A DNA stretch of 55,093 nt from Nanobdellota archaeon (GCA_039714095.1 JBDLJZ010000001.1:1-55093), one strand, 5' to 3'. Shown: positions 190 through 14,577, counted from the first letter of the stretch. The notes: generated by a model from the letters alone, not told the origin. A program made the numbers and translations.

Positions 190-239
190 ATTTTGGGTGA
201 CCACAAATTTACTTTTTCTTCTTTTTTGTGGACACCTCT
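190..239. repeat. left arm of composite inverted repeat bracketing the fic gene
   Basis: Box1 attttgggtgaccacaaa (190-207) and box2 gtggacacctct (228-239) are 20 nt apart. Both recur in inverted orientation with the same 20-nt spacing at 1146-1197. Confidence 0.75.
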
Positions 240-1138
240 TTAAGTGTCTTTTTATACTGATTAATTAATAATTTGAGAGTTGGTTTTAAATCATCTTGTT
301 TAGAATATTTTTGCAGTGATTTATAATATTCTTGTCTATCCTCAAGCATAATATTTATTGGGGGATAATTATTTTGTAATAAAATATAATTTAATAATAA
401 TCTTCCAACCCTTCCATTTCCATCTTGAAACGGATGAATATGCTCAAATTGATTATGAAGTATTGAAGCTAAAACCAATGGTTTAAATTTATCTTTATTT
501 TCTTTATGCCAGTCAATAAAATCATTTAGATAATTTTTGAGTTCTTCTTTAGGAACTCCTGCGTGAAGAATATGTCCTGTAGAATTTCTCACAACTACAT
601 TAACATTTCTAAATTTTCCTGCAAAAGATTTTGAACCTTTAAAACAAAAATTATGTAATTTTAATAATAATTTTAATGACAAATCTTCTTTTGTATTTCT
701 TATATGTTCTATTGCTTCTGCCACCCCCAAAGTTTCTATTTTTTCAGGGTCTTTGGTCTTGGGCTTTTCATCTAAAATTTCTTTAACTTCTTCTTCAGTA
801 ACTGTTGAGCCCTCAATGGCATTTGTATTATATACAAAATCCTCTGTAAAATTTTCCCATTCTTTTTTACTCAAATGGACAACTTTAATCTTATCATTAT
901 AACCATTTAGTACCTCTACCTGTTTTTTTGTTAACGTAAAAGAAAACACTTTCGTACTAATTTCTTCAATTAAATCTAAAATTATTTCTTCGGCTTTTTT
1001 TCTTTTCCTTTTCAATTCTTCTTCTGAAAGATTAAATCCTAAATATCTTCTTATTTTTTCAACTTTATTGTTTTCTCTATAAGAATGAACCAAATAATAT
1101 TTTATGTTTTTTCTTGATTTTCTTTTTTCAATGTGCAT
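209..1138 (-). CDS. fic: Fic/DOC family protein (AMPylase-type Fido domain)
   Basis: HIHPFQDGNGRVGRLL matches the Fic core motif HxFx(D/E)GNGRxxR. 309-aa ORF. Confidence 0.9.
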   Translation of the reverse strand: MHIEKRKSRKNIKYYLVHSYRENNKVEKIRRYLGFNLSEEELKRKRKKAEEIILDLIEEISTKVFSFTLTKKQVEVLNGYNDKIKVVHLSKKEWENFTEDFVYNTNAIEGSTVTEEEVKEILDEKPKTKDPEKIETLGVAEAIEHIRNTKEDLSLKLLLKLHNFCFKGSKSFAGKFRNVNVVVRNSTGHILHAGVPKEELKNYLNDFIDWHKENKDKFKPLVLASILHNQFEHIHPFQDGNGRVGRLLLNYILLQNNYPPINIMLEDRQEYYKSLQKYSKQDDLKPTLKLLINQYKKTLKEVSTKKKKK

Positions 1139-1387: not shown

Positions 1388-4087
1388 ATGAGATCAGTAG
1401 ATGAACAAATTCATATTTTGGATGAAGCAATATGTAAGCATATCGAAAATTATGAAATGAATAAAGACAGGGGTTTTTTATCTCAAAGTATTTTAAAAAT
1501 CCTTAGAGATTTTATTGAAGCAGTCTCCGTAAAATCAAGTGGTCAAAGTGAATATCATTATGATTTATTTAAAAATGTAGCAAAAGGTTATGTTGCATCA
1601 AGAGCTGAACTAAAATTTTTAAATGATTTTCATAAATATCTTCAAAAAACAGTTTCACATTATCTTCCAAGTGAAGAAAATTCAGAAAGATTAATGTTAA
1701 AATATTATGATTATTTATTAAGAATTAAATATTTGTTAAAAGATAGATACAACATTAGTGTTTTAGAAAACATAAATAAATTTCCAATATTTAACGATCC
1801 TTCATTGCAAAAATATTATGAAAAAATAGTTATAGAAATTAATAAGCCTGTGGAAACCAGAAGAAGAAGTGATTATATGGATAGATATTATGTTAGGAAG
1901 ATAAAACCTTTTTTTATTAATCAAGAAAAATATTATGAAGTAACTTTTACAACCGCCAATGATTATGAAAGTAAATTTGACAGGGTGATTGCTTTTACAA
2001 AATGGGAAATTTCTCCAAATTATTCTGTAAGGCTTTCTATAAGTCATGGAAATATAGAAGTTTTTAATAAGAAAATGCCAATTCAAATCATTGATAACTG
2101 GGAAGTATCAATTCGCCCTTGCGAGTTAAATTATTTTGTAGATATATTTGGAGATCATCCAGAGATAAGTATTGGCTCAAGGGAATATAAAAATTTAATG
2201 ATACTTTTAACAGGAAGTGGTTTTAATCTTGCCGAAGTTATTGAATTTTCTGACAAGTACTATCAGCTTTTTAGAAATGAAGCAATTAGGAATGCACAAG
2301 TAACTCATATATTTGATGTCTTAGATAGAGTACGTGAATTAGTAAAGAATAATTCTCCTAGTAGTAATGTCCTTAAGTATTTGCTTTATAGTCTTAAAAA
2401 TAAAATTATTAAAGACCAAATTAATAGCAAACATTGTTTTCTTTTATCTGACTTAAGGCTTAAATGGGGATGCATACCTTTTGACAAGATGCCTTTTGTT
2501 ACATCTCCTGTAGGTCATAATCCTAAAATTCATGATCTGTTGAATTGTTTTGATATAGAAAACCATCAACATGAGTTATTTGCAAGACTCATAAAAAACA
2601 ATACCGGACAAAAAGGAATTTTATATACACCTCTTAAAGATTTAGAATTTGAAAACCCAAACCAATTAATTAATTCTTACAATAGCAAACTTTATCACAA
2701 GCATAGACCTGCACGTGATTTAGAAATTTATAAAGAGCATGTTTATATGAATAATTATGAACAAGATACACTTAAAATTATTAAAAAGTTAAAAGAATTA
2801 TCAAATTTAGGTATTAAAAATTATTCAAATTCTGTTAGTGTATGGTTAAACTCAAGCTCTGAAAATGTTGATTGTAGTTACAAAAGAGAGATTCTAAAAA
2901 AAATGTTTGAGCATTCGGGAATCGCATTGGTGTATGGTGCTGCTGGAACTGGGAAAACTAGATTAATTGAACATGTTTCAAGTTTTTTTAATGAACATAA
3001 TAAATTATTCTTAGCAAATACTCATCCAGCAATTAATAATTTACGAAACAGAGTAAGTACAAGAAATTCCTCATTTAAAACAATTGCTAGTTTCTTGCAT
3101 CCGCAAAATATGGATACGGAATTTGATGTTTTAATCATAGATGAATGTAGTACAATAAGTAATTCGGATATGTTAAGAATATTAGAAAAATCCTCCTTTA
3201 AACTATTACTTTTGGTGGGGGATGTTTTTCAAATAGAATCTATTCTCTTTGGAAATTGGTTTAATATAGCACAATCTTTCATTCCAAATAATTCTGTTTT
3301 TGAATTAACTAAGCCCTATAGAACCACAAATGAAAATCTATTAAAATTGTGGGATAAAGTAAGGAATGTTGAAGATGATATTTTGGAACATATCACTAAT
3401 AACAAATATTCTGCAGAATTAGACGAATCAATTTTTGAATATTCAGAAGATGATGAAATTATTTTATGTTTAAATTATGATGGATTATATGGAATCAATA
3501 ATATCAATAATTTTTTACAAGAAAATAATAAAAATAATAAAATACAGTGGGGTATTCATAGCTACAAAGTTGGTGACCCTATATTGTTCAATGAATCAGG
3601 GAGGTTTAGACAATTAATTCATAATAACTTAAAAGGAAAAATCTTGGGCATAGAATTATTAAAAGATAAGATTAAATTTGATATTGAAATTAATAAATCT
3701 ATAAATGAATTAGATGTGTTAGGGCATGATTTAGAGTTATTAGGCGAATCAAAGAATGGGAACTCTATCATTAGTTTTTATGTTCATAAGTTATCGAGTT
3801 CTGATGAAGATGATGAATCCTTAAATAAAATAGTTCCTTTCCAAGTGGCTTATGCTATCTCGATACATAAAGCTCAAGGTTTAGAATATAATTCAGTTAA
3901 AGTTATAATTACAGATGAAATTGGGGAAATGATTACTCCGAATATATTTTATACCTCAATTACTCGTTCAAAAGAAAAATTAAAGATTTATTGGACTCCT
4001 CAAACTGAAAAAAAGATATTAGCAAATTTACAACATAAAGATAACAAGAGAGATACGCATTTACTAAAAGCAAAATTTAAGATATAG
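1388..4087 (+). CDS. SF1 (RecD/Dda/Pif1-like) helicase with a large uncharacterised N-terminal region
   Basis: Walker A VYGAAGTGKT, Walker B VLIIDECS, LVGDVFQIES, and C-terminal YAISIHKAQGLEYNSVKVII plus FYTSITRSK, typical of AAA_30/UvrD_C_2 helicases. The first ~510 aa have no motif I recognise. Confidence 0.8.
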   Translation: MRSVDEQIHILDEAICKHIENYEMNKDRGFLSQSILKILRDFIEAVSVKSSGQSEYHYDLFKNVAKGYVASRAELKFLNDFHKYLQKTVSHYLPSEENSERLMLKYYDYLLRIKYLLKDRYNISVLENINKFPIFNDPSLQKYYEKIVIEINKPVETRRRSDYMDRYYVRKIKPFFINQEKYYEVTFTTANDYESKFDRVIAFTKWEISPNYSVRLSISHGNIEVFNKKMPIQIIDNWEVSIRPCELNYFVDIFGDHPEISIGSREYKNLMILLTGSGFNLAEVIEFSDKYYQLFRNEAIRNAQVTHIFDVLDRVRELVKNNSPSSNVLKYLLYSLKNKIIKDQINSKHCFLLSDLRLKWGCIPFDKMPFVTSPVGHNPKIHDLLNCFDIENHQHELFARLIKNNTGQKGILYTPLKDLEFENPNQLINSYNSKLYHKHRPARDLEIYKEHVYMNNYEQDTLKIIKKLKELSNLGIKNYSNSVSVWLNSSSENVDCSYKREILKKMFEHSGIALVYGAAGTGKTRLIEHVSSFFNEHNKLFLANTHPAINNLRNRVSTRNSSFKTIASFLHPQNMDTEFDVLIIDECSTISNSDMLRILEKSSFKLLLLVGDVFQIESILFGNWFNIAQSFIPNNSVFELTKPYRTTNENLLKLWDKVRNVEDDILEHITNNKYSAELDESIFEYSEDDEIILCLNYDGLYGINNINNFLQENNKNNKIQWGIHSYKVGDPILFNESGRFRQLIHNNLKGKILGIELLKDKIKFDIEINKSINELDVLGHDLELLGESKNGNSIISFYVHKLSSSDEDDESLNKIVPFQVAYAISIHKAQGLEYNSVKVIITDEIGEMITPNIFYTSITRSKEKLKIYWTPQTEKKILANLQHKDNKRDTHLLKAKFKI

Positions 4088-4164
4088 ATTCCAAACTGAT
4101 TTTTAATAAATAATTTCTAAGAATTAACAATAACTCATAAAAACACCTTATTCTATCCAGTTTT

Positions 4165-5706
4165 ATGTTAACAAAATCAAATTATCTCTTAGGATTGCAA
4201 TGCCCTAAATTATTATGGGTTTCTAAAAATAACAAAGAAAGAATTCCGGAATATGATGAGATGACTTTGGCGACTTTCAAGAATGGAGAAATAATTGGAG
4301 ATTTTGCAAAGAAACTATTTCCAGAAGGAATTGATTTATCTAAAGAAGGGTTTAAAGAAAACTTAGAAAAAACAAAAGAGTTATTAGAAAAAAGAGTTCC
4401 GTTATTTGAAGCAGGATTTTCAATTGATAATCTATATTCGAGAGCAGATGTTCTTTTGCCAGTTGAAAAAAACAAATGGGATATTTTAGAAGTTAAATCT
4501 GCGACAAAAGTAAAAGAGGTTAATATTCACGATGTTAGTTTTCAGAAATATGTTTATGAAAAAGCAGGATTGAAAATTAGGAATTGTTTTGTTATTCATA
4601 TAGATAATCAATATGCTAAAGAAGGAGAAATTGAGCCAGAGAAATTTTTTACCCAAAATGATATTACAGAAAAAGTTGAAGAGTTTGGTTTAGATATTGA
4701 AAAGAGAATTGAGAATATGTTAAAAATTATTAATTCAAAAGAAGAGCCGAAGTGTTCTATTGGAGTTCATTGTTCAGACCCGTTTGATTGTTCTATAACT
4801 GGAGAGTGCTGGAGTCACATTAAAGAGGGAAGTGTTTTTGAATTTTATAGAATGAGAAAAAAGAAAATATTTGAATTGTATGATTCTGGAATCAAACATT
4901 TGAATGAAGTTCCTGATTCAGTTAAATTAAACGATAAACAAAAAATACAGAGATTAATTGCAGAAAAAAAAGAAACGCATAAAGACAAAAAACAAATTAA
5001 ACATTTTTTAGACAATTTGAAATATCCACTTTATTATTTAGACTTTGAAACAATCAATCCAGCAATTCCAAAGTTTGAAGGAATGAAGCCTTACCAAAGA
5101 ATTCCTTTTCAATTTTCATTACATATTCAAGAAAAACCAAATGGAGAATTAAAGCACATTGGTTTTTTGGCAGAGGGAATAAACGACCCAAGACAAAAAT
5201 TCTTACAATCATTAAAAGATAACTTAGGAAAAGAAGGAGATATTTTAGTTTATAATCAAGCATTTGAAAAAGGAGTTTTGAGGGAATGCTGTAGGTCATT
5301 TCCAGAATTTCAAGAATGGTGTGAAAAAAATATTATGTCTAGAGTAAAAGATTTGTGGGATGTCTTTAAGGGATTTTGGTATTATGATTCTAAGCAAAAA
5401 GGTAGTGCTTCAATTAAAGCAATACTTCCATTATTTTCTGATTTGAGCCATAAAGATTTGGATATCACAAAAGGAGATATTGCAAGTTATGAATATGCAA
5501 GAGTTACTTATGGTTCTGATGATGAAATCTTGAAAGATGATGATTTGAAAGGTTTGAGTGAAGAAAATATTAAAAAATGGGTTGAGGATGAAAGAAAAAA
5601 AGTTCGAGATGCTTTGGAGAAATATTGCGAGTTGGATACTTTGGCAGAGGTTGAGATTGTTAAGGGTTTGGGGGAAAATATAAAAATGGAAGAAATTAGG
5701 AGATAA
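4165..5706 (+). CDS. DUF2779-type protein: N-terminal Cas4-like PD-(D/E)xK nuclease with a Cys cluster plus C-terminal DUF2779 (DxE exonuclease-like) region
   Basis: N-terminus SNYLLGLQCPKLLWV. Nuclease-like ADVLL...WDILEVKSATK. Four-Cys cluster CSIGVHCSDPFDCSITGECW. YYLDFETINPAIP follows. Confidence 0.7.
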   Translation: MLTKSNYLLGLQCPKLLWVSKNNKERIPEYDEMTLATFKNGEIIGDFAKKLFPEGIDLSKEGFKENLEKTKELLEKRVPLFEAGFSIDNLYSRADVLLPVEKNKWDILEVKSATKVKEVNIHDVSFQKYVYEKAGLKIRNCFVIHIDNQYAKEGEIEPEKFFTQNDITEKVEEFGLDIEKRIENMLKIINSKEEPKCSIGVHCSDPFDCSITGECWSHIKEGSVFEFYRMRKKKIFELYDSGIKHLNEVPDSVKLNDKQKIQRLIAEKKETHKDKKQIKHFLDNLKYPLYYLDFETINPAIPKFEGMKPYQRIPFQFSLHIQEKPNGELKHIGFLAEGINDPRQKFLQSLKDNLGKEGDILVYNQAFEKGVLRECCRSFPEFQEWCEKNIMSRVKDLWDVFKGFWYYDSKQKGSASIKAILPLFSDLSHKDLDITKGDIASYEYARVTYGSDDEILKDDDLKGLSEENIKKWVEDERKKVRDALEKYCELDTLAEVEIVKGLGENIKMEEIRR

Positions 5707-5707
5707 T

Positions 5708-6610
5708 ATGGCAGTTCCAGATTTTCAATCAATAATGCTCCCTTTATTGAAGTATCTACAAGATGAAAAAGAACATACATTAAGAGAAGTAATTGAACAT
5801 ATTTCTAAAGAATTTAATTTGACAGATGAAGAAAAAATGATATTATTACCTTCAGGGAAACAACCAACTATTGATAATCGTGTAGGTTGGGCAAGAACAT
5901 ATATGAAAAAAGCAGGGTTTATTCTTATGCCCAGTAGAGGATATATGAAAATTTCAAAAAAAGGTTTAGAAGTATTACAACAAAATCTTCCAAAAATTAA
6001 TATTGCATATTTAAAAAAATCTCCAGAATTTGTAGAATTTCAAACAATGAAGTCCGAGAAAGTAAAAGATTCTGCTAAAATTTCAGAAGATAATGAAGAT
6101 GAGACTCCCGATGAATTAATGGAAAGAGGAAACAAATTAATTAATTCTAATCTTATTCCAGATGTTCTTTCCGAATTAAGATCTTGTGATCCTTATTATT
6201 TTGAAAAGATTGTTGGGAATCTTTTAGAAACAATGGGATATGGAGATTTTGAAGTGACTAAAAAATCAAACGATGGAGGAATTGATGGCATTGTAAATCA
6301 AGATAAATTAGGCATAGATAAAATATTTTTTCAGGCAAAAAGATATGCGGAAAATAATTCTGTAACTGCTCATGAAGTTAGAGATTTTGTTGGAACTCTT
6401 GAATTAAGTGGTGTTAATAAGGGAATTTTCATTACTACTTCAAAATTCCCTTCCAACACTCAGGAATTGATACGTGGAGCACAAAAAAACATTATTTTAA
6501 TTAATGGGCAAAAACTTGCAGAATTAATGATTGAATATAATTTGGGAGTTTCTATTGAAAGAGTTTATAAAATTAAAAAGATAGATTCAGATTTTTTTAG
6601 AGAAGATTAA
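5708..6610 (+). CDS. mrr: Mrr-family type IV restriction endonuclease
   Basis: N-terminal Mrr_N-like winged helix (VPDFQSIMLPLLKYLQD). C-terminal catalytic core DGGIDGIV...IFFQAKRY. The start codon is 1 nt after the stop of the upstream gene. Confidence 0.85.
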   Translation: MAVPDFQSIMLPLLKYLQDEKEHTLREVIEHISKEFNLTDEEKMILLPSGKQPTIDNRVGWARTYMKKAGFILMPSRGYMKISKKGLEVLQQNLPKINIAYLKKSPEFVEFQTMKSEKVKDSAKISEDNEDETPDELMERGNKLINSNLIPDVLSELRSCDPYYFEKIVGNLLETMGYGDFEVTKKSNDGGIDGIVNQDKLGIDKIFFQAKRYAENNSVTAHEVRDFVGTLELSGVNKGIFITTSKFPSNTQELIRGAQKNIILINGQKLAELMIEYNLGVSIERVYKIKKIDSDFFRED

Positions 6611-6728
6611 AAATGAAAGTAATAATGCATAAATCTTTGGAGAAGTATTGAGATGGCTACGAAGGCAGAGGTTGAAATAGTAGATGGATTATATGAAATT
6701 ATAAAAACTTAATTTAATTAAAAATAGG

Positions 6729-7286
6729 ATGGTAGCATATAAAAATTTCTGGTCATTGAATACAGATGAAGCAGTTGTAACAGGAATTTTAAGAGAAAAG
6801 ACCCCTAAAGATATTGATGTTCTTATGCCAATTAATGCACAAATGAAAGACGTTGATTTAGTTTTAATGGATTTTACTAATAAAAAAAGCATCACAATTC
6901 AAGTCAAAGGAAGCAAGGCATACGAGCCAAAGAAAAAAGAAGTTGAGAAATATGGAGAAGGATCTAATGGTTGGTTTTTTCTAAAAAAAGATATTATACA
7001 TAGGTCAGAAGCAGATTACTTTATTTTTTTAGTTTATGTCATATCTGAAAACGAAAAAATTGGAAGAAGATTTATTGAACCCCATACAATAACAATCCCA
7101 ACAAAAAAATTACAAGAATTATGTTCAAAACACAAAAAACCTCATCCAGATAGATATAGTTTTTATTTCTGGGTAAACCCAAAAAAGAAAATTGCTTTTG
7201 ATTGGAGAGATGAGCAGTTTGATGTAACAGAGTATTTAGATAAGAATGGTTTTGAAAAATTGAATAAAGAATTTGAAAAAGAATAG
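6729..7286 (+). CDS. hypothetical protein with a possible PD-(D/E)xK-like nuclease fold
   Basis: ILRE...DVDLVLMD...ITIQVKGSK resembles an E/D...D...(E/Q)xK arrangement. Co-directional with the helicase/DUF2779/Mrr genes. Fold assignment is inference only. Confidence 0.35.
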   Translation: MVAYKNFWSLNTDEAVVTGILREKTPKDIDVLMPINAQMKDVDLVLMDFTNKKSITIQVKGSKAYEPKKKEVEKYGEGSNGWFFLKKDIIHRSEADYFIFLVYVISENEKIGRRFIEPHTITIPTKKLQELCSKHKKPHPDRYSFYFWVNPKKKIAFDWRDEQFDVTEYLDKNGFEKLNKEFEKE

Positions 7287-7302: not shown

Positions 7303-8427
7303 CTATTTTCCGTTTTCTTCTATAAATTCTTCATAAGTTCCTGAAGGTCTGAAATCTATTGAATAAGTTTTTGAGTCCAATCTTTCTAAAACTACCGAGT
7401 CAAATCCTATCTCTTGCAATTTTTCATAAGTTAATAATTCTTTTTCTTTTAGACCTAATACATTTCTCAATAACCATTTTCCAAGGTCTGCATTGTGTTT
7501 ACTCATTAACGCTTTTGAGCCATCTTGACACACTTTTGCGGATAATATTTGTCCATCGGGCAATATAAGATTAAATGGCTTATCTCTTCCGAGAAAAAAT
7601 CCAGGAAATCTTTTATGAATCCACGTTGGAATTGGGACATAGATTTCATCAGGATTTCTTTTTCTTCCTCCTGCATTCCATTGATTAAGTCCACTTTTTG
7701 GATATACAATTTTGCCTTTTGAAGTAATGGAATAAAGGGGCAATACAACATGAACTTTCAATTTTGCCTCAGTGTAATATGTTTTCTTTATATCTAAAAA
7801 TTTCTCCTCTATGACTTCAAAAGGATCATCAAGAATTTTTACAGGAACTTTAAGAAGAGTGTTTTTTGTATGAAATCTTTTGTATAATGTGCTTTTGGTT
7901 AAATTAAAAGAATATTCATTTTTAGAGTCTTTAAAAGAAATAGTATTATTGCTTGATTTAAGATGTGTTATTTTATCAATATCAATTAAATCCATAGGGC
8001 ATTCAAAAGTTGAAATTTTACCTTCATCTCTAACAATGCAATGGTATATCATTTCATTTAATCCATAAATTCTCTTTGTTGCTTCTATCCTTTTATTTCT
8101 TAACTCTGCAACTTTTTTAATTGCATCTTCTTTGGAGAGATTTCTAAATTGTAAATTATCTCTATTGAATTCTGCCACCTTTTGCAATGTTTTCCCATTT
8201 CCATTAACAAAAGTTTTTATTCCAACCCCAACAGTTCCAAGTGATGCGTCCGCAGAAACATCTGAACGAGAAAGATTCTTTGCAGAGAAAGATTTACAAA
8301 AAAGATTTTCCGTAACTCTGTAATTTAAAAAAGGTATTGTGCTTTCAGAAAAAAGCCCAGTCAAAGACCCGAGAATTTTTAACATCTTTTCATAATAAAG
8401 ATGTTTTGAAGACTTTTTATTCACCAT
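7303..8427 (-). CDS. putative type II restriction endonuclease (partner of the adjacent m5C methyltransferase)
   Basis: 374-aa ORF starting 1 nt downstream of the stop of the co-oriented cytosine-5 methyltransferase. The call rests on gene context. I recognise no catalytic motif. Confidence 0.55.
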   Translation of the reverse strand: MVNKKSSKHLYYEKMLKILGSLTGLFSESTIPFLNYRVTENLFCKSFSAKNLSRSDVSADASLGTVGVGIKTFVNGNGKTLQKVAEFNRDNLQFRNLSKEDAIKKVAELRNKRIEATKRIYGLNEMIYHCIVRDEGKISTFECPMDLIDIDKITHLKSSNNTISFKDSKNEYSFNLTKSTLYKRFHTKNTLLKVPVKILDDPFEVIEEKFLDIKKTYYTEAKLKVHVVLPLYSITSKGKIVYPKSGLNQWNAGGRKRNPDEIYVPIPTWIHKRFPGFFLGRDKPFNLILPDGQILSAKVCQDGSKALMSKHNADLGKWLLRNVLGLKEKELLTYEKLQEIGFDSVVLERLDSKTYSIDFRPSGTYEEFIEENGK

Positions 8428-8428
8428 C

Positions 8429-9373
8429 TTACAGAACCTTTACAATCTCTTTTGCAACTCTTTGAATAACTGTAACATTAACACTATTTCCTGCCTGATG
8501 ATATAATTTTGCATCTGCTATTTTTGGAAGTTTCCAACTTTTAGGAAAGCCTTGTAGTCTAAAACATTCAAAAGGTGTTAATTTTCTTATTCCTTTGTGA
8601 TCTAAAATAATTGGGACATTGTGTCCTCCTGAACCCATATTTGCAGTTAGAGTAGGACAAACTTTACTCTTATTTTCTCGCACATATTTTCTCCGCCATT
8701 GATAAACTGTATCTTTGGAGGTGATTTCTTTTTTTAATTCAGGATAGATAAATTTACCTTTATAATAGTATTTTTCGTCTACATTTTTCTCTAAAAAATC
8801 TTTAAAGCTCTTATTGAGTTTTGTAGTCTTGGGGAACTTAAATTTCTTGGCTTTCTTATGATCTAAAAATCCTACAATGATAATTCTTTCTCTATTTTGT
8901 GGAAGATTTCCATGAGTCATTCCATTTAACACTTCAGATTTGACCATATAACCCAAATCTTCCAATGTTTTTTTAATCACCTTAAAGGTTTTTCCGTGAT
9001 CGTGAGTCTTTATATTTTTTACATTTTCCAAGAATACAATTTTTGGTTTTTTCTCTTCTATTATTTCAGCTATCCTAAAAAATAAATTTCCTCTTCCTTT
9101 TTTGTCTTTAAATCCTTGCCTCTGTCCTGCAATAGAAAAAGGTTGACAAGGAAACCCTGCCAATAAAATCTCAAAATTTGGAATATCTTTTATTGGATAC
9201 TTGCAAATATCCGCAATTGTTAATTTAACTCCTTTGTGATTTAAATCAAAAGTATCTTTACAGGATTTTTCAAAATCATTAGAGAAAACTGTTTTAAATC
9301 CTGCTTTTTCAAAACCCAACCTAATGCCCCCAACACCTGCAAATAAATCTATTGCCCTCTTTTTAATCACCAT
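8429..9373 (-). CDS. DNA (cytosine-5)-methyltransferase
   Basis: Motif I DLFAGVGGIRLGF, motif IV GFPCQPFS, motif VI ENVKN, LTPFECFRLQGFP, motif X QAGNSV. Confidence 0.95.
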   Translation of the reverse strand: MVIKKRAIDLFAGVGGIRLGFEKAGFKTVFSNDFEKSCKDTFDLNHKGVKLTIADICKYPIKDIPNFEILLAGFPCQPFSIAGQRQGFKDKKGRGNLFFRIAEIIEEKKPKIVFLENVKNIKTHDHGKTFKVIKKTLEDLGYMVKSEVLNGMTHGNLPQNRERIIIVGFLDHKKAKKFKFPKTTKLNKSFKDFLEKNVDEKYYYKGKFIYPELKKEITSKDTVYQWRRKYVRENKSKVCPTLTANMGSGGHNVPIILDHKGIRKLTPFECFRLQGFPKSWKLPKIADAKLYHQAGNSVNVTVIQRVAKEIVKVL

Positions 9374-9567
9374 ATTACATAAAAATCAGCATTGTTTTTA
9401 TATGTTGCCCATGCTCTTTTTTTAGCTTCAAAAATTCTTAAAATAGTTTTTCTTTTTAACTTTCTTTTCTAGTTTTCTTTCTATCTCTTTCAAGTCATTC
9501 ATTATCTTATCAAATTTATCTTCAACTTCCATTTTTTATTCTCATTAAGATATTTTTATACGAAAAA

Positions 9568-9729
9568 TCAAATTTCTAAGTGCTTCTTAATTTTTTCATA
9601 AAATGCCTTAAGTTTTTCCCTATCTCCAATATAAGCTAATACTTTCTGTTTAACCTTCCCATCAACAAGCTTCCCTTCAACTAAATAATAGTAATCTTTT
9701 CCTTTAATCAATTTCTTTCTTATATACAT
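9568..9729 (-). CDS. small hypothetical protein (53 aa)
   Basis: Hand translation gives MYIRKKLIKGKDYYYLVEGKLVDGKVKQKVLAYIGDREKLKAFYEKIKKHLEI. It is below the ORF-track cutoff. The YYYLVE..DGKVKQK.LAY.G pattern resembles N-termini seen in archaeal mobile-element proteins (recollection, not verified). Confidence 0.3.
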   Translation of the reverse strand: MYIRKKLIKGKDYYYLVEGKLVDGKVKQKVLAYIGDREKLKAFYEKIKKHLEI

Positions 9730-9893
9730 ATTAGGCACAAGGATTCTTAATATATAAATCTTATTATTTAGAGTAAATCTCTAGAATGAATATGGTATCT
9801 CCTATATGAAATGTATTCTGTGTGAAATGTATATAAATAATAAAACAAAACATTTATAAAGATTAGGCACAATATATATAGGTAATAATAAAT

Positions 9894-9916
9894 AAAAAAA
9901 GGAGCCCGAAGGCTCC
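9894..9916 (-). terminator. GC-rich UUCG-capped hairpin followed by a U-run (minus-strand reading)
   Basis: Minus strand reads GGAGCC-UUCG-GGCUCC followed by UUUUUUU. There is no annotated minus-strand CDS immediately upstream. Confidence 0.35.
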
Positions 9917-10002
9917 CCTGTCTCGTCGCTAAACAAAGACAAAATGAAAAGAAGTTATAGATATAAAAACCTTATTGTAAATCAACTTAGGAGAGATTGC
10001 TA

Positions 10003-10407
10003 ATGCAACAAGTAATCTATCTTAAAGAAAATTCTGATAGTATAAAGAATGCCAAAACAATCTTTGATAATATAAGTAAAATCAAAGTAGATTACGAACA
10101 AGAAAACTTTTTAGTTTTCTTCTTAGATACGAGATTAGAAATAATTGACACAGAGGTTTTATTCAAAGGTGGATTAAACTCTTGTTTGATAGACCCCAAA
10201 ACAATTTTTAGAAAAGCTTTGTTGAAAAATTCAGCTGCAATTATTGTTTCGCATAATCATCCAAGTAGAAATTTAAGCCCATCAAGTGAAGACATAGAAA
10301 GTTTTAACGAATTGAAAAAGATTGGCGAATTATTAGATTTAAGTGTTTTAGATAGTATTATCTTTGATGAAAATAAATATTACTCTCTTTCTGAAAATGA
10401 TAATTAA
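10003..10407 (+). CDS. RadC-like JAB/MPN domain protein
   Basis: IIVSHNHPSRNLSPSSEDI matches the JAMM-like HxHPSG...S.xD signature of RadC/DUF2466. ATG at 10003 is preceded by GGAGAG. The track start at 9997 is a TTG. Confidence 0.8.
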   Translation: MQQVIYLKENSDSIKNAKTIFDNISKIKVDYEQENFLVFFLDTRLEIIDTEVLFKGGLNSCLIDPKTIFRKALLKNSAAIIVSHNHPSRNLSPSSEDIESFNELKKIGELLDLSVLDSIIFDENKYYSLSENDN

Positions 10408-11092
10408 AACTTACAAAGAATTAGAGTTCTTCTTAAAAATGTTCAGAAATGGAAATGCGGAGCTTCTGATAGTCGAATCAAGGGGTGGATTAGGAAAATC
10501 AAGGCTTACAGAAAAAATGCTTAAGGATAAGGTTTACTTAAGAATTTTAAGCCATATAACGCCAATGCAATTTTATATTTTAGGATATAAATTTAAGGAC
10601 TTGCCTATTGTTATAGATGATTGTGATGGGCTTTTATCTAATGACCAGAATATTTCTTTGTTGAAAATGTTTTGCGAAACAAGGGAAACTAAAAGAGTTA
10701 GTTGGCTTAGTACAACAGGGGCTCTCAAAGAACAAGGAGTTCCAATGAATTATGAAACGCAATCCAAGGTTTTAATTTTGACTAATGATTTTCAAAATTT
10801 ATCTAAAAAAGTAGGTGCATTACAAGACAGAGGTTGGCACATCTCATTTGATCCCACACATAAGGAAATATTAAATCGAATTAAACAAATAAAGAAATTT
10901 TGCAGTTTAAATTTATCTGAGAATGAAATCAATGAAGTCTATGATTTAATTGAGAAATATTCTTCTGTTGGTCAATTTAGCCTTAGAACTTTTGTAAAAG
11001 GATTATTTTTGTATAAAGAATGTAAAAATACTGAGACTAATTGGAAAGAAATTTTATTGCAAGAAATGAAAGTTAATTCTAAATTATTTTGA
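10397..11092 (+). CDS. P-loop NTPase, plasmid or virus-like
   Basis: Walker A-like ESRGGLGKSRL and Walker B-like LPIVIDDCD. ATG at 10397 overlaps the RadC stop by 11 nt. The longer track start at 10364 would overlap more. Confidence 0.5.
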   Translation: MIIKTYKELEFFLKMFRNGNAELLIVESRGGLGKSRLTEKMLKDKVYLRILSHITPMQFYILGYKFKDLPIVIDDCDGLLSNDQNISLLKMFCETRETKRVSWLSTTGALKEQGVPMNYETQSKVLILTNDFQNLSKKVGALQDRGWHISFDPTHKEILNRIKQIKKFCSLNLSENEINEVYDLIEKYSSVGQFSLRTFVKGLFLYKECKNTETNWKEILLQEMKVNSKLF

Positions 11093-11362
11093 TTTGTCTA
11101 ATTTTTCAATATCATTTAACAAACTCTTGCCTTTTGTAGAAATTTTATAGAATCTTATGAGCTTTTGCTTTGGATTTAAACATTCAGCAAAACCTTTTTT
11201 GACTAATTCATTTAAGGTTCTACTGACAGAATTAAAATGTAAACCTGTTTCATCTTTTAGCTGTGTTGGAGTTTTTGGATTTCCAAGCAATTTTAGGATA
11301 TTTTTTCTATGTTTACTCCCCAAAATATAACTAATGTTTTCCCAACTACCTTCTTTTTTCAT
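11084..11362 (-). CDS. winged helix-turn-helix transcriptional regulator (ArsR-like)
   Basis: HRKNILKLLGNPKTPTQLKDETGLHFNSVSRTLNELVKKGF is a typical wHTH. Start trimmed to MKKEGSW at 11362 because the upstream 21 codons are Cys/Phe-rich, low-complexity sequence. Confidence 0.65.
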   Translation of the reverse strand: MKKEGSWENISYILGSKHRKNILKLLGNPKTPTQLKDETGLHFNSVSRTLNELVKKGFAECLNPKQKLIRFYKISTKGKSLLNDIEKLDKSK

Positions 11363-11462
11363 AAAAACAAAAATACAACAATAATTAAAAGCAAATCCAA
11401 CATCAATCCAACAACTATAACACAAAACTTATAAGTCTGAAAGAATTAATTTATTTAATAAA

Positions 11463-11603
11463 ATGGGTAAGCTCTTTGATTATTGTATGACAGGGGATTG
11501 GGAAGAAACGCAAAGAATAGCATTATATAAAAAGTTGGGCAAGAAATTGGATGATTTATCTCCTGAACAGCTAAAAAAGATTAAAAAAATAATGAATGAA
11601 TAA
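11463..11603 (+). CDS. small hypothetical protein (46 aa)
   Basis: Hand translation gives MGKLFDYCMTGDWEETQRIALYKKLGKKLDDLSPEQLKKIKKIMNE. No motif. Confidence 0.25.
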   Translation: MGKLFDYCMTGDWEETQRIALYKKLGKKLDDLSPEQLKKIKKIMNE

Positions 11604-11632
11604 TATAATTCTCATACCCAGATTATACAAAA

Positions 11633-11676
11633 TTCTATGGATTCCATAGAACTATAGACTCCATAGTTCCATAGAT
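11633..11676. repeat. iteron-like cluster of TCCATAG motifs including a 9-bp-arm palindrome
   Basis: TTCTATGGA-T-TCCATAGAA at 11633-11651, followed by actCCATAG and ttCCATAG copies up to 11676. Confidence 0.7.
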
Positions 11677-11801
11677 TTAGGCATTTTTTGTCGCTCTAGA
11701 AAGGTATTCCCTTTGTCAGAGATAATTTATACAATAAGATTTTGTTTTTTTGGTATTTTTTGTGCGGTGTCTCTCTTTTCTTAAGGCTCATCTAAATAAA
11801 A

Positions 11802-12032: not shown

Positions 12033-12034
12033 TT

Positions 12035-12671: not shown

Positions 12672-12884
12672 TTAAATTATTTGAAAGAGAAGTTGTTTGT
12701 TGTTTTTTCTTCTCTTTCTCTTTATTTTTAATTAAATCTGTTAGCGTGTTTACCCAATTTGGATTTTTTTCTTTATTCATAATTAAAAAGAGCCCACGCC
12801 CTCTTTTAGAATTTTTTTGTATAAAAATTACTTATAAAAGAATCTTGTACAAAAATTTATATACGAAAAAGTGATATTTTTTGT

Positions 12885-13427
12885 ATGGGTGATATAAATC
12901 CACCTCATTTGAAAAAAGAATTTTTTGGAAAGGGAACCTCTGTTGTTAGGAATACAAAAAATCCATATATAAATAGAGATGAAAAGAATAAAGATAAGAA
13001 AAATAAAGATGTCTCTAAAAATGATAATTATTCTATAAGCATACCAATAAAAGTAGCCAAAATTATGGGGCTTAAAAATAAACAAAGATTAGATTTGATG
13101 TATTATCTTGATAAAAAATGTCCCCAAATTATACTTTCTATACCTCCTCTTTCAGATAAAGATAGGATACAAAAAATAAAGGAAAATAAAAAATTTCTAA
13201 AAATGGGAACCTCTTCAGACGAAATAGAATTATCAAGAGAAATATATAAGTTAGAAAAAGATATAGAAAGCAATAAAGATACACAAAAAATTATATTGTC
13301 TCATCCAGAATCTTCTGATAAAAAAGAGGCAATTAAATATTTAGAAGGAAGCGAAGAAGAATTAACAGAATTACTTAAAGAATTAAAAAATGATTTAAAT
13401 GAAATTAAAGAGAAATCTTCTTCTTAA
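12885..13427 (+). CDS. AbrB/SpoVT-like DNA-binding protein with a coiled-coil tail
   Basis: ISIPIKVAKIMGLKNKQRLDLMY resembles the AbrB-type swapped-hairpin motif. The remainder is charged and coiled-coil-like. Confidence 0.4.
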   Translation: MGDINPPHLKKEFFGKGTSVVRNTKNPYINRDEKNKDKKNKDVSKNDNYSISIPIKVAKIMGLKNKQRLDLMYYLDKKCPQIILSIPPLSDKDRIQKIKENKKFLKMGTSSDEIELSREIYKLEKDIESNKDTQKIILSHPESSDKKEAIKYLEGSEEELTELLKELKNDLNEIKEKSSS

Positions 13428-14577
13428 TTAATTCCAAAATTTCTGGATCCTTAATTAGTCCATCCATAACATTATCTGTTAAACTTCTTTCTGTTTCTGC
13501 TTCAATAATCTTTTCAGCTTCCTCTTTATCTAAAACTAATCCACAGATTTTACAAAATCGGTTTGTTGCTTCATTGGTAGTATTACACTTTATGCATTTC
13601 TTAGGTTGCATAACTGGAAGGTTTGATTCTTTCTTTATCTCTACGCCGTTAGCCCTTAGCACAGCTTCATCTGTTGTTTTTCCACACATGGAAATATATA
13701 CTCCACACATACGGCTACTTTGCCCCCAACCAAGATATTGCTTCATACATGCTTCACTCATAGTAGAAGCAAGCAGCGTAGCTCTTGAATGTCTAAGTAA
13801 ATGCAAATGAACTCTTTTTTTTATTCCTGCTTTTTTCGCAGCTGTTTTTAATACTCCTGAGATTCTTGTATAACTCATTTGTTGCCCATCACTTTTTATC
13901 CAAAGAGGAGAGTTTGAATTATCATTATCAGAATGTTGATTTATCCAGTTTTGCAAATAAGGAGAACTCCATACAACTAGAATTTTTCTCATGCCAGTCT
14001 TCCCATCCACAGTTAATCTTGCACCATATTCTTCAAATGAAGTATGTTTTATTTGCATTGACCCGATTTCTCCTGCCCTACAACCTGATTCGGCTAATGT
14101 AGCAATCAAAGCTTTGTCTCTTGGATTATTACATTTTTGAATTATCTTTTTTATTTCTTCTTCAGTTAAAAGTTCTTCAGGAAGCTTACTTTTACTTCTA
14201 GGAATATTAATTGAAATCCATCTAACTCTTTCTGGATAAACCCCTTTCTCATCTATATCTTCTATAAAACGATAAAGTTTTCTTACAATTACTTTAAATC
14301 CTTTTTTTGTTTCTTCTGCTAATCCTGTTTGGTTAAGTTCTCCAATAACAGCCCTGATGTCGTTTTTTGTAGCCTCTTCAAAAGGCTTTTTCAGCATTTT
14401 AGAATACTTTACTAATTCTCCAATACATCTTTCAATTCTTGGAACTCCAATTCCTTCACTCAATAAATAATTCTTAAATTTTAATATAGTCTCTTTATTT
14501 TCTTCGAGAATTTCTTTAGATTTCTTAATATTTTTAAGTGTTCTATCAAGTCTTCTTTTGTAATTATGTATATCCAT
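13405..14577 (-). CDS. tyrosine recombinase / integrase with a C-terminal zinc ribbon
   Basis: ESGCRAGE (Arg box), HLHLLRHSRAT (HxxR), GWGQSSRMCGVYI (catalytic Tyr region), CIKCNTTNEATNRFCKICG zinc ribbon. Sits 60 nt from the tRNA-Asp 3' end. Confidence 0.9.
   Translation of the reverse strand: MDIHNYKRRLDRTLKNIKKSKEILEENKETILKFKNYLLSEGIGVPRIERCIGELVKYSKMLKKPFEEATKNDIRAVIGELNQTGLAEETKKGFKVIVRKLYRFIEDIDEKGVYPERVRWISINIPRSKSKLPEELLTEEEIKKIIQKCNNPRDKALIATLAESGCRAGEIGSMQIKHTSFEEYGARLTVDGKTGMRKILVVWSSPYLQNWINQHSDNDNSNSPLWIKSDGQQMSYTRISGVLKTAAKKAGIKKRVHLHLLRHSRATLLASTMSEACMKQYLGWGQSSRMCGVYISMCGKTTDEAVLRANGVEIKKESNLPVMQPKKCIKCNTTNEATNRFCKICGLVLDKEEAEKIIEAETERSLTDNVMDGLIKDPEILELIKKKISL

What the first reader, a model, noticed from the sequence alone, without database searches (positions are those of the whole stretch)
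1388..7286. Co-directional helicase / DUF2779 dual nuclease / Mrr / small nuclease-fold cluster: candidate uncharacterised defence module
Four same-strand genes are tightly packed, with gaps of 77, 1 and 118 nt. The DUF2779 gene and mrr are essentially translationally coupled. The 899-aa protein joins a ~510-aa N-terminal region with no motif I recognise to a RecD/Dda-type SF1 helicase core. The 513-aa protein combines a Cas4-like PD-(D/E)xK domain, a 4-Cys cluster and the DUF2779 region with an LDFET (DxE-like) motif. Mrr is a known modification-dependent restriction enzyme. A helicase plus DUF2779 plus Mrr combination is not a named defence system that I know of. Its location inside an integrated island beside a type II restriction-modification pair fits a defence island.
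Basis: partly seen in the sequence, partly recalled or inferred. Interest (0 to 1): 0.75.

Follow-up and report, generated by a model that had tools for sequence, protein, structure and literature searches.

The report
Mosaic defence island, not one system
The four tightly packed genes are real, but they are a patchwork of separately acquired defence-type genes in a tiny archaeon's genome, not one new immune system; a leftover gene fragment shows how the restriction gene was spliced in.

Summary
In detail: ORFs, gaps (77, 1 and 118 nt) and domains are as described. The interpretation as one helicase/DUF2779/Mrr/small-nuclease system does not.

- **Helicase.** It matches PADLOC's untested single-gene candidate PDC-S53 end to end. 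The family occurs in at least 566 species and 61 viral contigs with no conserved partner. DUF2779 lay nearby in 1 of 80 genomic loci, Mrr in 2 of 80, ORF4 in none. Its three closest relatives also lack DUF2779 next door.
- **DUF2779.** None of 82 DUF2779 loci carries the helicase.
- **The recurrent link is DUF2779→ORF4.** All six DPANN ORF4 contexts (seven with this window) have DUF2779 just upstream.
- **Relic.** The Mrr–ORF4 spacer holds a decayed DUF2779 3′ end (6635–6711) at the native distance from ORF4. A foreign DUF2779+Mrr block therefore displaced a resident DUF2779.
- **Clade context.** The window's DUF2779 clade abuts restriction genes in 9 of 13 informative loci.
- **ORF4.** It models confidently as a PD-(D/E)xK-like fold.

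Verdict: a mosaic defence island of mostly catalogued parts. The DUF2779–ORF4 pair and its link to restriction genes are the only fresh lead.

The parts
209..1138 (-). Fic/DOC-family protein (309 aa). It diverges from the helicase and is a separate defence or toxin-type gene.
   Evidence: Pfam Fic 75.7 bits. PADLOC SoFic 124.5 bits and PDC-S04. Bracketed by 43-nt imperfect direct repeats, 196-238 and 1149-1191 (D3).
1388..4087 (+). PDC-S53-family protein (899 aa): a conserved N-terminal region of about 500 aa with unknown fold, plus an SF1B (RecD/Dda/Pif1-type) helicase core. A stand-alone gene carried by mobile elements.
   Evidence: PADLOC PDLC05035 scores 1270.7 bits over residues 1-897 against model positions 1-894 of 900. 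Walker A G517-K523, DE585-586, GD611-612..Q615 and HKAQG827-831 are invariant. Foldseek hits RecD, RecD2, Pif1 and Dda at E about 1e-10. PHROG 325 covers residues 1-876. No conserved neighbour in 80 loci.
4165..5706 (+). DUF2779 dual nuclease (513 aa): an N-terminal Cas4-like PD-(D/E)xK domain with a 4-Cys cluster, plus a C-terminal DEDDy-type 3'-5' exonuclease domain. The allele belongs to the restriction-linked clade.
   Evidence: PF11074 140 bits. Invariant motif residues in alignment A2. 75%, 73% and 63% identical to the DUF2779 genes of L082, L083 and L086, which abut GmrSD, a methylase+S pair and Mrr respectively. Domain assignment follows PMC3985635 and PMC13621843.
5708..6610 (+). Mrr-type type IV (modification-dependent) restriction endonuclease (300 aa). 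It starts 1 nt after the DUF2779 stop codon.
   Evidence: Mrr_N 112 bits and Mrr_cat 119 bits. PADLOC mREase_IV 235 bits. A 76%-identical Mrr follows DUF2779 in L086.
6635..6711 (+). Pseudogenised relic of the 3' end of a second (resident) DUF2779 gene. It ends 17 nt before the ORF4 start codon.
   Evidence: Reads ..LEKY*(TGA)..[2-nt deletion]..ATKAEVEIVDGLYEIIKT*. blastn: the L165 DUF2779 3' end matches 6665-6726 at 84% over 62 nt (E=2.4e-14), and the window's own DUF2779 3' end matches 6635-6707 at 75% over 75 nt (E=2e-8); all other hits in the window have E>=0.002. It is the largest direct repeat in the first 15 kb (D1). Intact pairs have a 16-19 nt spacer.
6729..7286 (+). ORF4 (185 aa): member of a small, highly conserved, unnamed family with a PD-(D/E)xK-like fold. 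The usual downstream partner of DUF2779 in DPANN archaea.
   Evidence: No Pfam, NCBIfam, PADLOC, PHROG or PDB-sequence hit. 373 clusters at 60-89% identity in DPANN and CPR. Only 201 representatives in 1.84 billion proteins, all single-domain. Invariant E14, D43 and Q58-V-K60. AF2 pLDDT 88. Foldseek: SPARDA nuclease domain E=1e-3, I-Ssp6803I TM 0.50/0.61, Hjc. DUF2779 lies upstream in L149, L105, L165-170, L173-176 and L179-180.
7303..8427 (-). NgoFVII-like type II restriction endonuclease (374 aa).
   Evidence: RE_NgoFVII_C 57 bits. PADLOC REase_II 364 bits.
8429..9373 (-). C5 cytosine DNA methyltransferase (314 aa), partner of the restriction enzyme.
   Evidence: PF00145 300 bits. PADLOC MTase_II 393 bits.
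9997..10407 (+). RadC-like JAB-domain protein (136 aa); such genes are commonly found on mobile elements.
   Evidence: PF04002 119 bits.
13405..14577 (-). Tyrosine integrase (390 aa), the likely right-hand end of the island. Seryl-tRNA synthetase follows at 15370.
   Evidence: Phage_integrase 72 bits; SerRS domains on the next gene.

Best explanation
The cluster is a mosaic defence island in a Nanoarchaeota (DPANN) genome, made of units with separate histories that lie head to tail.

1. **Helicase.** It belongs to family PDC-S53, a stand-alone gene that travels on prophages and integrative elements across many phyla. It most likely acts on its own, with an unknown N-terminal module coupled to a 5'-3' SF1B motor.
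2. **DUF2779 + ORF4.** This was the resident pair at the site.
3. **Incoming block.** A foreign block carrying another DUF2779 allele plus an Mrr type IV restriction gene recombined in. It replaced the resident DUF2779 except for its last 80-100 nt, which survive as a decayed relic just upstream of ORF4.
4. **Other units.** Fic and an NgoFVII-type restriction-modification pair flank the array.

Inferred function: Mrr cuts modified foreign DNA. DUF2779 has a Cas4-like nuclease domain (5'-3' polarity assumed by analogy with Cas4) and a DEDDy 3'-5' exonuclease domain. It most likely trims or destroys the DNA ends that restriction enzymes create, a RecBCD/AddAB-like job; that these reduced genomes lack RecBCD/AddAB is background assumption, not tested here. 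ORF4 may be a small PD-(D/E)xK-like partner.

Shown: architecture, family memberships, lack of helicase co-occurrence, DUF2779-ORF4 pairing, the relic, and the clade-specific adjacency to restriction genes. Inferred: all biochemical roles.
For: **Helicase**
- Full-length PDC-S53 match.
- At least 566 genome loci; the best 80 are 48-64% identical over the full length.
- 61 IMG/VR contigs and two isolated phages.
- Neighbours are serine recombinases (14 of 80 loci), HsdR (12), ParB-methylases (11), terminases and integrases. No partner is conserved.
- DUF2779, Mrr and ORF4 lie nearby in 1, 2 and 0 of 80 loci, and in 0 of 61 viral loci.
- Close relatives sit next to an integrase plus T4SS genes, next to a DpnII RM system, or alone.
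- On the contig of the 82% relative, DUF2779 lies about 16 kb away on the opposite strand and heads its own SMC-like/HsdMSR array.

**DUF2779**
- 0 of 82 loci carry the helicase.
- In the close clade, restriction genes (GmrSD, Mrr, HsdM, HsdR, HNH, SNF2, methylases) abut the gene in 9 of 13 informative loci, often at gaps of -11 to +1 nt.
- In the roughly 64 more distant loci, at most about 8 have such neighbours.

**ORF4**
- DUF2779 lies 1-2 genes upstream in all six DPANN contexts examined outside this window (seven with the window); it is absent from both non-DPANN contexts, a CPR bacterium and a viral contig.

**Relic**
- E=2.4e-14 and E=2e-8 against E>=0.002 for background; native spacing to ORF4.
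- The relic resembles the ORF4-paired L165 lineage (84% nt). The intact gene belongs to the restriction-linked clade.

**Literature**
- DUF2779 is a Cas4-like plus DEDD exonuclease fusion (PMC3985635, PMC13621843).
- DPANN solo-Cas4 genes were noted beside RM genes (PMC5704561).
- A Cas4-family nuclease boosts another defence system (PMC12094033).
Against: - The tight co-directional packing, including a 1-nt DUF2779/Mrr gap, is compatible with co-transcription. Functional cross-talk in this particular genome cannot be excluded.
- One bacterial locus (L044, Arcobacter) also has DUF2779 about 1 kb downstream of a PDC-S53 helicase.
- Diverse other motor proteins sit next to DUF2779 elsewhere: ResIII/SNF2 in 5 loci and an HI_1054 SF2 helicase in L179. 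A looser 'nuclease plus any motor' relationship therefore remains open.
- Most distant DUF2779 genes have housekeeping neighbours, and a homologue is quasi-essential in JCVI-syn3.0. That favours a repair role over a defence role for DUF2779.
- No anti-virus activity has been shown for PDC-S53, DUF2779 or ORF4.
- Only 2 of 82 DUF2779 loci have ORF4, so the pairing is one-sided.
Confidence: 0.72

Rival explanations
1. One reading: helicase, DUF2779, Mrr and ORF4 form one integrated, previously unnamed defence system. In this view it would be a split Dna2/AddAB-like helicase-nuclease machine guided by Mrr.
For: - Same strand with gaps of 77, 1 and 118 nt.
- An SF1B helicase plus an Fe-S Cas4-like nuclease recalls Dna2, which appears among the Foldseek hits at E about 4e-7.
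- One other locus, L044, has PDC-S53 and DUF2779 within about 1 kb.
Against: - Co-occurrence is 1 of 80, 0 of 61 and 0 of 82 loci.
- The closest helicase relatives lack DUF2779 next door.
- The helicase family is catalogued as a single-gene candidate.
- The relic shows the array arose by a recombination event.
- Gaps are small throughout this compact genome.
Confidence: 0.05
2. DUF2779, with or without ORF4, is a housekeeping DNA repair or recombination nuclease of reduced genomes. Restriction genes, the helicase and other mobile cargo simply accumulate beside it, because its conserved sequence serves as a recombination anchor or hotspot flank. No functional coupling exists.
For: - The homologue MMSYN1_0389 is quasi-essential in JCVI-syn3.0.
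- Most distant DUF2779 loci have housekeeping neighbours such as phosphorylase, SurE, OGG and RF-1.
- In L165-169 the pair sits beside proteasome and exosome genes.
- The relic shows recombination inside the gene's conserved 3' end.
- Solo-Cas4 is widespread in DPANN, and archaeal solo-Cas4 lineages are described as mostly vertically inherited.
Against: - In the window's clade, restriction genes abut DUF2779 in 9 of 13 loci. They are usually on the same strand with overlapping or 1-nt junctions, which looks operonic.
- Two paralogues can occur on one contig of the same length (P0170 and P0173).
- There is precedent for Cas4-family accessory nucleases in defence.
Confidence: 0.3
3. The PDC-S53 helicase is not a host defence gene. 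It is instead a replication, recombination or anti-defence helicase of prophages and integrative elements (Dda-like), present here as a remnant of such an element.
For: - 61 IMG/VR contigs and two cultured phages carry full-length homologues.
- In phage TPDSL_ph1 it lies between the replication module and a repressor.
- PHROG 325 is annotated 'Dda-like helicase'.
- Terminases, integrases and ParB-methylases are recurrent neighbours.
- PDC families are untested.
Against: - PADLOC selected the family because it is embedded inside known defence systems.
- HsdR, GmrSD and DpnII RM genes are also recurrent neighbours.
- It often sits near prophage ends, as accessory genes do.
- It occurs alone in archaeal chromosomal contexts.
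Confidence: 0.3

Closest known systems
PADLOC PDC-S53 (single-gene phage defence candidate, found by guilt-by-embedding; bioRxiv 10.1101/2024.01.29.577857)
   Same: The window's helicase matches the family model over its whole length (1270.7 bits). Like the family, it has no conserved partner.
   Different: Nothing differs structurally. The family itself has no demonstrated function, and here it lies in a DPANN archaeon, whereas nearly all named relatives recovered are bacterial or viral.
SF1B helicases RecD, RecD2, Dda, Pif1 and Dna2
   Same: The helicase core motifs are invariant. Structural matches reach E about 1e-10 to RecD, RecD2 and Pif1.
   Different: It carries a conserved N-terminal region of about 500 aa (helical bundle plus beta domain) with no sequence match in Pfam or PDB; no fold match was seen among the 50 listed Foldseek hits, all of which fall on the helicase core. 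It is not part of a RecBCD-type operon and is not fused to a nuclease as Dna2 is.
DUF2779/PF11074 (UU173 family; MMSYN1_0389) Cas4-like plus DEDD exonuclease fusion
   Same: Strong Pfam match. The PD-(D/E)xK triad and the DEDDy residues are conserved, as described in PMC13621843 and PMC3985635.
   Different: This archaeal clade keeps all four Cas4-type cysteines, whereas the mycoplasma protein keeps two. It is typically joined to restriction genes, and in some lineages it is followed by ORF4.
Solo-Cas4 next to restriction-modification genes in DPANN archaea (Hudaiberdiev et al. 2017, PMC5704561)
   Same: The same kind of context was noted there: a Cas4-family nuclease beside RM genes in DPANN, suggesting an uncharacterised defence role.
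   Different: That paper does not describe the DEDD fusion, the ORF4 partner or the recombination relic. Whether their DPANN solo-Cas4 set includes DUF2779 proteins was not checked.
pAgo-ACE1 (APACE1): a Cas4-family accessory nuclease that boosts another defence system (PMC12094033)
   Same: It gives a conceptual precedent for a Cas4-like nuclease acting as a helper to a primary nuclease.
   Different: The partner differs (Argonaute, not restriction enzymes). ACE1 has no DEDD domain. No interaction has been shown here.
Mrr / type IV restriction (PADLOC mREase_IV)
   Same: Full Mrr_N plus Mrr_cat architecture.
   Different: None detected. It is ordinary apart from its position between DUF2779 and the relic.

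Membership tests
PADLOC PDC-S53 | Full-length match to model PDLC05035 | tested here: met
   1270.7 bits, E=0, residues 1-897 against model positions 1-894 of 900.
PADLOC PDC-S53 | Single-gene unit with no obligatory partner | tested here: met
   No neighbour cluster occurs in more than 14 of 80 loci, and those lie 2-4 kb away.
PADLOC PDC-S53 | Anti-phage activity | not testable with these tools
   The source paper lists the 145 PDC systems as untested.
SF1B helicase (RecD/Dda/Pif1) | Walker A, Walker B and the conserved helicase motifs; RecA-like tandem fold | tested here: met
   Invariant GxxGTGK (517-523), DE (585-586), GDxxQ (611-615) and HKAQG (827-831). Pfam AAA_30, Viral_helicase1 and UvrD_C_2. 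Foldseek RecD2 and Pif1 at E about 1e-10.
DUF2779 (PF11074) | Pfam model match above the gathering score | tested here: met
   140.1 bits against a cut-off of 23.3, covering model positions 1-126 of 126.
Cas4-like PD-(D/E)xK nuclease with Fe-S cluster (N-terminal half of the DUF2779 protein) | D..ExK catalytic triad, QxxxY motif, and four Cys (one N-terminal, three C-terminal) | tested here: inconclusive
   D95/E109/K111, Q127/Y131 and C13/C203/C209/C215 are invariant in 23 sequences. However, Pfam Cas_Cas4 gives only E=1.4 on this protein, and a weak hit on the L179 homologue. The assignment rests on motifs and on HHpred results reported in PMC13621843.
DEDD(y) 3'-5' exonuclease (C-terminal half of the DUF2779 protein) | Four acidic residues plus Y/H four residues before the last Asp | tested here: inconclusive
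   D293, E295, D396/D399 and Y487-x3-D491 are invariant. No direct profile match to a DEDD family was obtained here. The classification follows PMC3985635 and PMC13621843.
Mrr type IV restriction endonuclease | Mrr_N winged-helix domain plus Mrr_cat PD-(D/E)xK domain | tested here: met
   112.1 and 119.4 bits. PADLOC mREase_IV 235 bits over the full length. Dependence on DNA modification is not testable here.
PD-(D/E)xK nuclease superfamily (ORF4) | alpha-beta-beta-beta-alpha-beta core with E...D...(D/E)xK residues | tested here: inconclusive
   Confident model (pLDDT 88). The top Foldseek hits all have this fold, but scores are borderline: E=1e-3 to 0.1, TM 0.36-0.61. Invariant E14, D43 and Q58-V-K60, with Q in place of the usual acidic residue. 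No sequence-profile hit.
Multi-gene defence system (conserved operon of helicase, DUF2779, Mrr and ORF4) | Component genes co-occur in the same arrangement across unrelated genomes | tested here: not met
   Helicase-DUF2779: 1 of 80, 0 of 61 and 0 of 82 loci. DUF2779-Mrr: only L086. No other locus has all four genes.
DUF2779-ORF4 two-gene module (proposed here) | ORF4 homologues lie immediately downstream of DUF2779 on the same strand | tested here: met
   Met in all six DPANN ORF4 contexts outside this window: gaps of -1, 1, 16 and 19 nt, or one interposed gene. Not met in the CPR bacterium or the viral contig. Only 2 of 82 DUF2779 loci carry ORF4.
Type II RM (NgoFVII-like) | Adjacent restriction enzyme and C5 methylase | tested here: met
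   PADLOC REase_II 364 bits and MTase_II 393 bits; 1-nt gap between the genes.

The most novel reading that the evidence does not exclude
DUF2779 together with the unnamed 185-aa ORF4 protein is an undescribed two-gene DNA-end-processing module of ultra-small archaea, with ORF4 also found in CPR bacteria. In this reading it does two things. It cooperates with whatever restriction enzyme sits next to it (Mrr, GmrSD or type I), degrading or processing the cut DNA in place of RecBCD. Its conserved 3' end also serves as a recombination anchor through which restriction cassettes are swapped, as the relic at 6635-6711 suggests.
Probability: 0.22. Interest if true: 0.65.

Novelty: new member of a known kind. 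Interest (0 to 1): 0.38.

Why it matters
As one new four-gene immune system it would have been notable, but the evidence says it is not one.

What remains useful:
- It is a clear worked example that tight co-directional packing in a compact DPANN genome does not imply a system.
- It extends the PADLOC candidate PDC-S53 to a DPANN archaeon and shows the family is largely prophage- or element-borne.
- It defines a small, very conserved, unnamed protein family (ORF4) that partners with DUF2779.
- It provides a datable recombination scar showing how a restriction cassette displaced part of a resident locus.

If DUF2779 and ORF4 really assist restriction enzymes, that would explain how organisms lacking RecBCD/AddAB dispose of restricted DNA. 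It would also give a function to a widespread domain of unknown function that is quasi-essential in the minimal cell JCVI-syn3.0.

Tried and rejected
- **ORF4 HMM against DUF2779 loci.** An HMM built from 120 ORF4 homologues, searched against all ORFs of 82 DUF2779 loci, found only L149 and L105. The many other 160-210-aa genes downstream of DUF2779 are not detectably related.
- **L086 182-aa ORF after Mrr.** Not ORF4 (hhalign probability 0.8%). It is probably the small restriction enzyme of the adjacent methylase.
- **282-aa gene upstream of ORF4 in the CPR bacterium.** Unrelated to DUF2779 and has no Pfam hit.
- **P0218 (740-aa DUF2779).** The extension is not ORF4. It gives only a sub-threshold UDG-superfamily hit (E=0.031) and no PDB sequence hit.
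- **Helicase N-terminus.** Pfam at E<=5 gave nothing meaningful. The PDB profile search hit only the core. Foldseek on the whole model listed only SF1B cores among its top 50 hits.
- **Promoter and terminator scan.** Uninformative: 52 promoter-like sites against 55 expected. The sigma-70 consensus does not apply to an AT-rich archaeon.
- **tRNA or att search.** No tRNA in the whole window, and no convincing island-bounding repeats.
- **Fusions of the ORF4 domain.** None among 201 representatives.
- **Literature.** No paper mentions PDC-S53 by name.

Full report
**Source and observation**

- helicase, 1388-4087, 899 aa
- DUF2779, 4165-5706, 513 aa
- Mrr, 5708-6610, 300 aa
- ORF4, 6729-7286, 185 aa

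The gaps are 77, 1 and 118 nt, and the DUF2779/Mrr junction reads TAA-T-ATG. A Fic gene diverges upstream (209-1138). An NgoFVII-like restriction enzyme and a C5 methylase converge downstream (7303-9373). A RadC-like gene (9997-10407) and a tyrosine integrase (13405-14577) follow. Beyond these come ordinary chromosomal genes, the first being seryl-tRNA synthetase at 15370 and including a ThyA-Tmk fusion; thermosome and eIF2-gamma are my reading of N-terminal sequences, not a family search. The same gene order is present in the Logan assembly of run SRR27843389.

**The helicase**

Residues from about 500 to 890 form an SF1B helicase core:
- Pfam AAA_30, Viral_helicase1 and UvrD_C_2 match.
- Sub-threshold RecD and RecD2 matches appear in NCBIfam.
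- All motor motifs are invariant in 26 homologues.
- Foldseek matches RecD, RecD2, Pif1 and Dda at E about 1e-10.

Residues 1-500 match no Pfam or PDB sequence. The AF2 model (mean pLDDT 64.5) shows a fairly confident helical bundle (1-151), a five-stranded beta domain (166-240) and further helices to residue 335, followed by a low-confidence linker.

The whole protein matches PADLOC model PDLC05035, family PDC-S53, from end to end at 1270.7 bits. [quoted passage not shown] They are explicitly untested (bioRxiv 10.1101/2024.01.29.577857). No paper mentions PDC-S53 by name.

The family is widespread and strongly conserved over its full length:
- At least 566 of the GTDB species genomes carry it. 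The best 80 loci are 48-64% identical to the query. Named sources include Patescibacteria, Bacteroidota, Bacillota, Proteobacteria, Melainabacteria, Elusimicrobia and Actinomycetales.
- 61 IMG/VR viral contigs carry it.
- Two cultured phages carry full-length copies at 44% identity.
- PHROG 325 covers residues 1-876.

**Does the helicase travel with the other three genes?**

No.
- In 80 genomic loci with up to 10-kb flanks, DUF2779 is nearby once (L044, Arcobacter, about 1 kb downstream), Mrr twice and ORF4 never.
- In 61 viral loci, none of the three is present.
- Clustering of all flanking ORFs found no partner in more than 14 of 80 loci, and those lie kilobases away. They are serine recombinases, HsdR, ParB-methylases, terminases, integrases and GmrSD, which is the signature of mobile elements and defence islands.
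- The nearest relatives behave the same way. P0002 (82% identity) sits between an integrase and a methylase plus T4SS genes. P0004 (76%) follows a DpnII restriction-modification system. P0007 (72%) stands alone among RadA, RPA and ThyA.
- On the P0002 contig a DUF2779 gene does exist. It is about 16 kb away on the other strand, and it heads its own array of DUF2779, an SMC-like ATPase, HsdM, HsdS and HsdR.

**DUF2779**

The protein matches PF11074 at 140 bits. Alignment of 23 homologues shows these residues invariant:
- a Cas4-type Cys set (C13, C203, C209, C215)
- a PD-(D/E)xK triad (D95, E109, K111) with a QxxxY motif
- DEDDy-type residues (D293, E295, Y487-x3-D491)

This agrees with published descriptions of the family as a Cas4-like nuclease fused to a DEDD 3'-5' exonuclease. 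One homologue is quasi-essential in JCVI-syn3.0 (PMC3985635, PMC13621843).

Its closest homologues (60-77% identity) are almost all from DPANN archaea. Among 82 DUF2779 loci (80 from the metagenome scan plus L082 and L083), none contains the helicase.

Over all 82 loci the immediate neighbours are heterogeneous. GmrSD_N appears 6 times, ResIII 5 times, and otherwise the genes are mostly housekeeping.

The clade nearest the window's gene (at least 54% identity) is different. In 9 of 13 loci with scorable flanks, a restriction-related gene abuts DUF2779, usually on the same strand with a gap of -11 to +1 nt:

| Locus | Neighbour |
|---|---|
| L082, L096 | GmrSD_N-HNH |
| L086 | Mrr (76% identical to the window's) |
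| L087 | HsdM |
| L083 | methylase plus specificity subunit |
| L097 | N6/N4 methylase |
| L088 | HNH and SNF2/ResIII |
| L091 | convergent GmrSD |
| L093 | convergent HsdR |

. Hudaiberdiev et al. (PMC5704561) had already remarked that DPANN solo-Cas4 genes lie next to RM genes.

**ORF4**

ORF4 hits nothing in Pfam, NCBIfam, PADLOC, PHROGs or PDB sequences. It belongs to a compact family:
- 373 clusters at 90% identity.
- Only 201 representatives at 50% identity among 1.84 billion proteins. All are single-domain proteins, mostly about 165-200 aa.
- Members are 60-89% identical to the window's ORF4 and come from both DPANN archaea and CPR bacteria.

E14, D43 and Q58-V-K60 are invariant. The AF2 model is confident (pLDDT 88, pTM 0.84). 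Its best PDB matches all have the PD-(D/E)xK fold: the SPARDA nuclease domain (E=1e-3), homing endonuclease I-Ssp6803I (TM 0.50/0.61) and Hjc resolvase. The scores are borderline, so 'nuclease-like fold' is supported but activity is not.

Six independent DPANN ORF4 contexts were examined outside this window. All six have DUF2779 one or two genes upstream on the same strand:
- Directly adjacent: L149 (1-nt overlap), L165-169 (16 nt), L170 (19 nt) and L179/180 (1 nt).
- One gene interposed: L105 (174 aa) and L173-176 (297 aa on the opposite strand, with a weak GIY-YIG hit).

In this window the interposed gene is Mrr. The exceptions are a CPR bacterium and one viral contig. The pairing is one-sided, because only 2 of 82 DUF2779 loci carry ORF4.

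**The relic**

The 118-nt Mrr-ORF4 spacer contains a degraded copy of a DUF2779 3' end (about 6635-6711).
- It reads ..LEKY, then TGA in place of the conserved Cys codon, then a 2-nt deletion, then ATKAEVEIVDGLYEIIKT and a stop.
- The stop lies 17 nt before the ORF4 start codon. Intact pairs have 16-19 nt.
- The DUF2779 3' end and spacer of L165 match window 6665-6726 at 84% over 62 nt (E=2.4e-14).
- The window's own DUF2779 3' end matches 6635-6707 at 75% over 75 nt (E=2e-8).
- Every other hit in the 55-kb window has E>=0.002.
- The repeat finder independently reports the pair as the largest direct repeat in the first 15 kb.

The relic resembles the ORF4-paired L165 lineage, and the window's ORF4 is 86% identical to the ORF4 of L165. 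The intact DUF2779 instead belongs to the restriction-linked clade, at 75%, 73% and 63% identity to L082, L083 and L086 but only 56% to L165.

The simplest history is as follows. A resident DUF2779-ORF4 pair was hit by an incoming block ending in a foreign DUF2779 allele plus Mrr, the arrangement seen in L086. That block replaced the resident DUF2779 except for its last 80-100 nt. Whether the helicase arrived with the block cannot be told.

**Mechanism**

The architecture is shown; the biochemistry is inferred.
- Mrr should cleave modified DNA.
- By analogy with Cas4 (5'-3' polarity) and DEDDy (3'-5') enzymes, DUF2779 can attack DNA ends from both polarities. I propose that it processes or degrades the ends produced by adjacent restriction enzymes, a RecBCD/AddAB-like task. 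That these reduced genomes lack RecBCD/AddAB is background knowledge, not tested here.
- ORF4 may be a structure-specific or DNA-binding PD-(D/E)xK-like partner.
- The pAgo-ACE1 system is a precedent for a Cas4-family helper nuclease (PMC12094033).
- The main rival for this part is a housekeeping repair role, with restriction genes merely accumulating beside a conserved recombination anchor.
- The helicase is best treated as an independent PDC-S53 unit. Whether it defends the host or serves the mobile elements that carry it is open. In phage TPDSL_ph1 it lies between the replication module and a repressor.

**Verdict**

The four-gene-system interpretation is not supported, and the helicase is already catalogued. 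The region is a mosaic defence island made of known or candidate kinds. The modestly novel elements are the unnamed ORF4 family, its pairing with DUF2779, the clade-specific coupling of DUF2779 to restriction genes, and the recombination relic.

Noticed in passing
window 196-238 and 1149-1191: The Fic gene (209-1138, - strand) is bracketed by 43-nt imperfect direct repeats (74% identity). Each has palindromic GGTGxCCAC...GTGGxCACC ends. They could be a cassette boundary or terminator-like elements (D3).
   Followed up: no
L081 and L247 (one 41,631-nt Logan contig, SRR34261244): The contig carrying the closest helicase relative has T4SS/conjugation-type genes (TrbC, PrgI-like, TraC/VirB4-like) next to an integrase. 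It also has a DUF2779 > SMC-like ATPase > HsdM > HsdS > HsdR array. Its DUF2779 and helicase are 60% and 82% identical to the window's, which suggests a DPANN origin. This looks like an integrative conjugative-type element.
   Followed up: partly
L087 199-2421 (protein P0218): A 740-aa DUF2779 protein carries a C-terminal extension of about 250 aa. Its only family hit is a sub-threshold match to the uracil-DNA glycosylase superfamily (E=0.031). It is immediately followed by HsdM.
   Followed up: partly
L179/L180 1-4555 (Woesearchaeota): An SF2 helicase of at least 863 aa (ResIII plus HI_1054 domains) is followed at 7 nt by DUF2779 and at 1 nt by ORF4. A different helicase family thus occupies the same position as PDC-S53 does in the window.
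   Followed up: no
window 49547-50470: A second, separate Cas4-like PD-(D/E)xK protein (PDDEXK_1, 307 aa) lies elsewhere on the contig. This is consistent with reports that DPANN genomes carry two distinct solo-Cas4 types.
   Followed up: no
window 18966-21092: A 708-aa fusion combines an MtrA-like domain, thymidylate synthase, a pterin-binding DUF4346 domain and thymidylate kinase. The next gene fuses a kinase-like P-loop domain to dCMP deaminase.
   Followed up: no
L171/L172 (CPR bacterium), about 3700-6555: In the bacterial context, ORF4 follows an unannotated 282-aa protein and lies next to a CAP12/PCTIR TIR-domain gene. This is another defence-type neighbourhood, without DUF2779.
   Followed up: partly
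L173-L176: A 297-aa gene on the opposite strand, with a weak GIY-YIG hit, is wedged between DUF2779 and ORF4. Like Mrr in the window, this suggests the DUF2779/ORF4 junction is a recurrent insertion point.
   Followed up: partly
window 9400-13400: About 4 kb between the methylase and the integrase has only short or doubtful ORFs apart from the RadC-like gene. It may be decayed mobile-element DNA.
   Followed up: no
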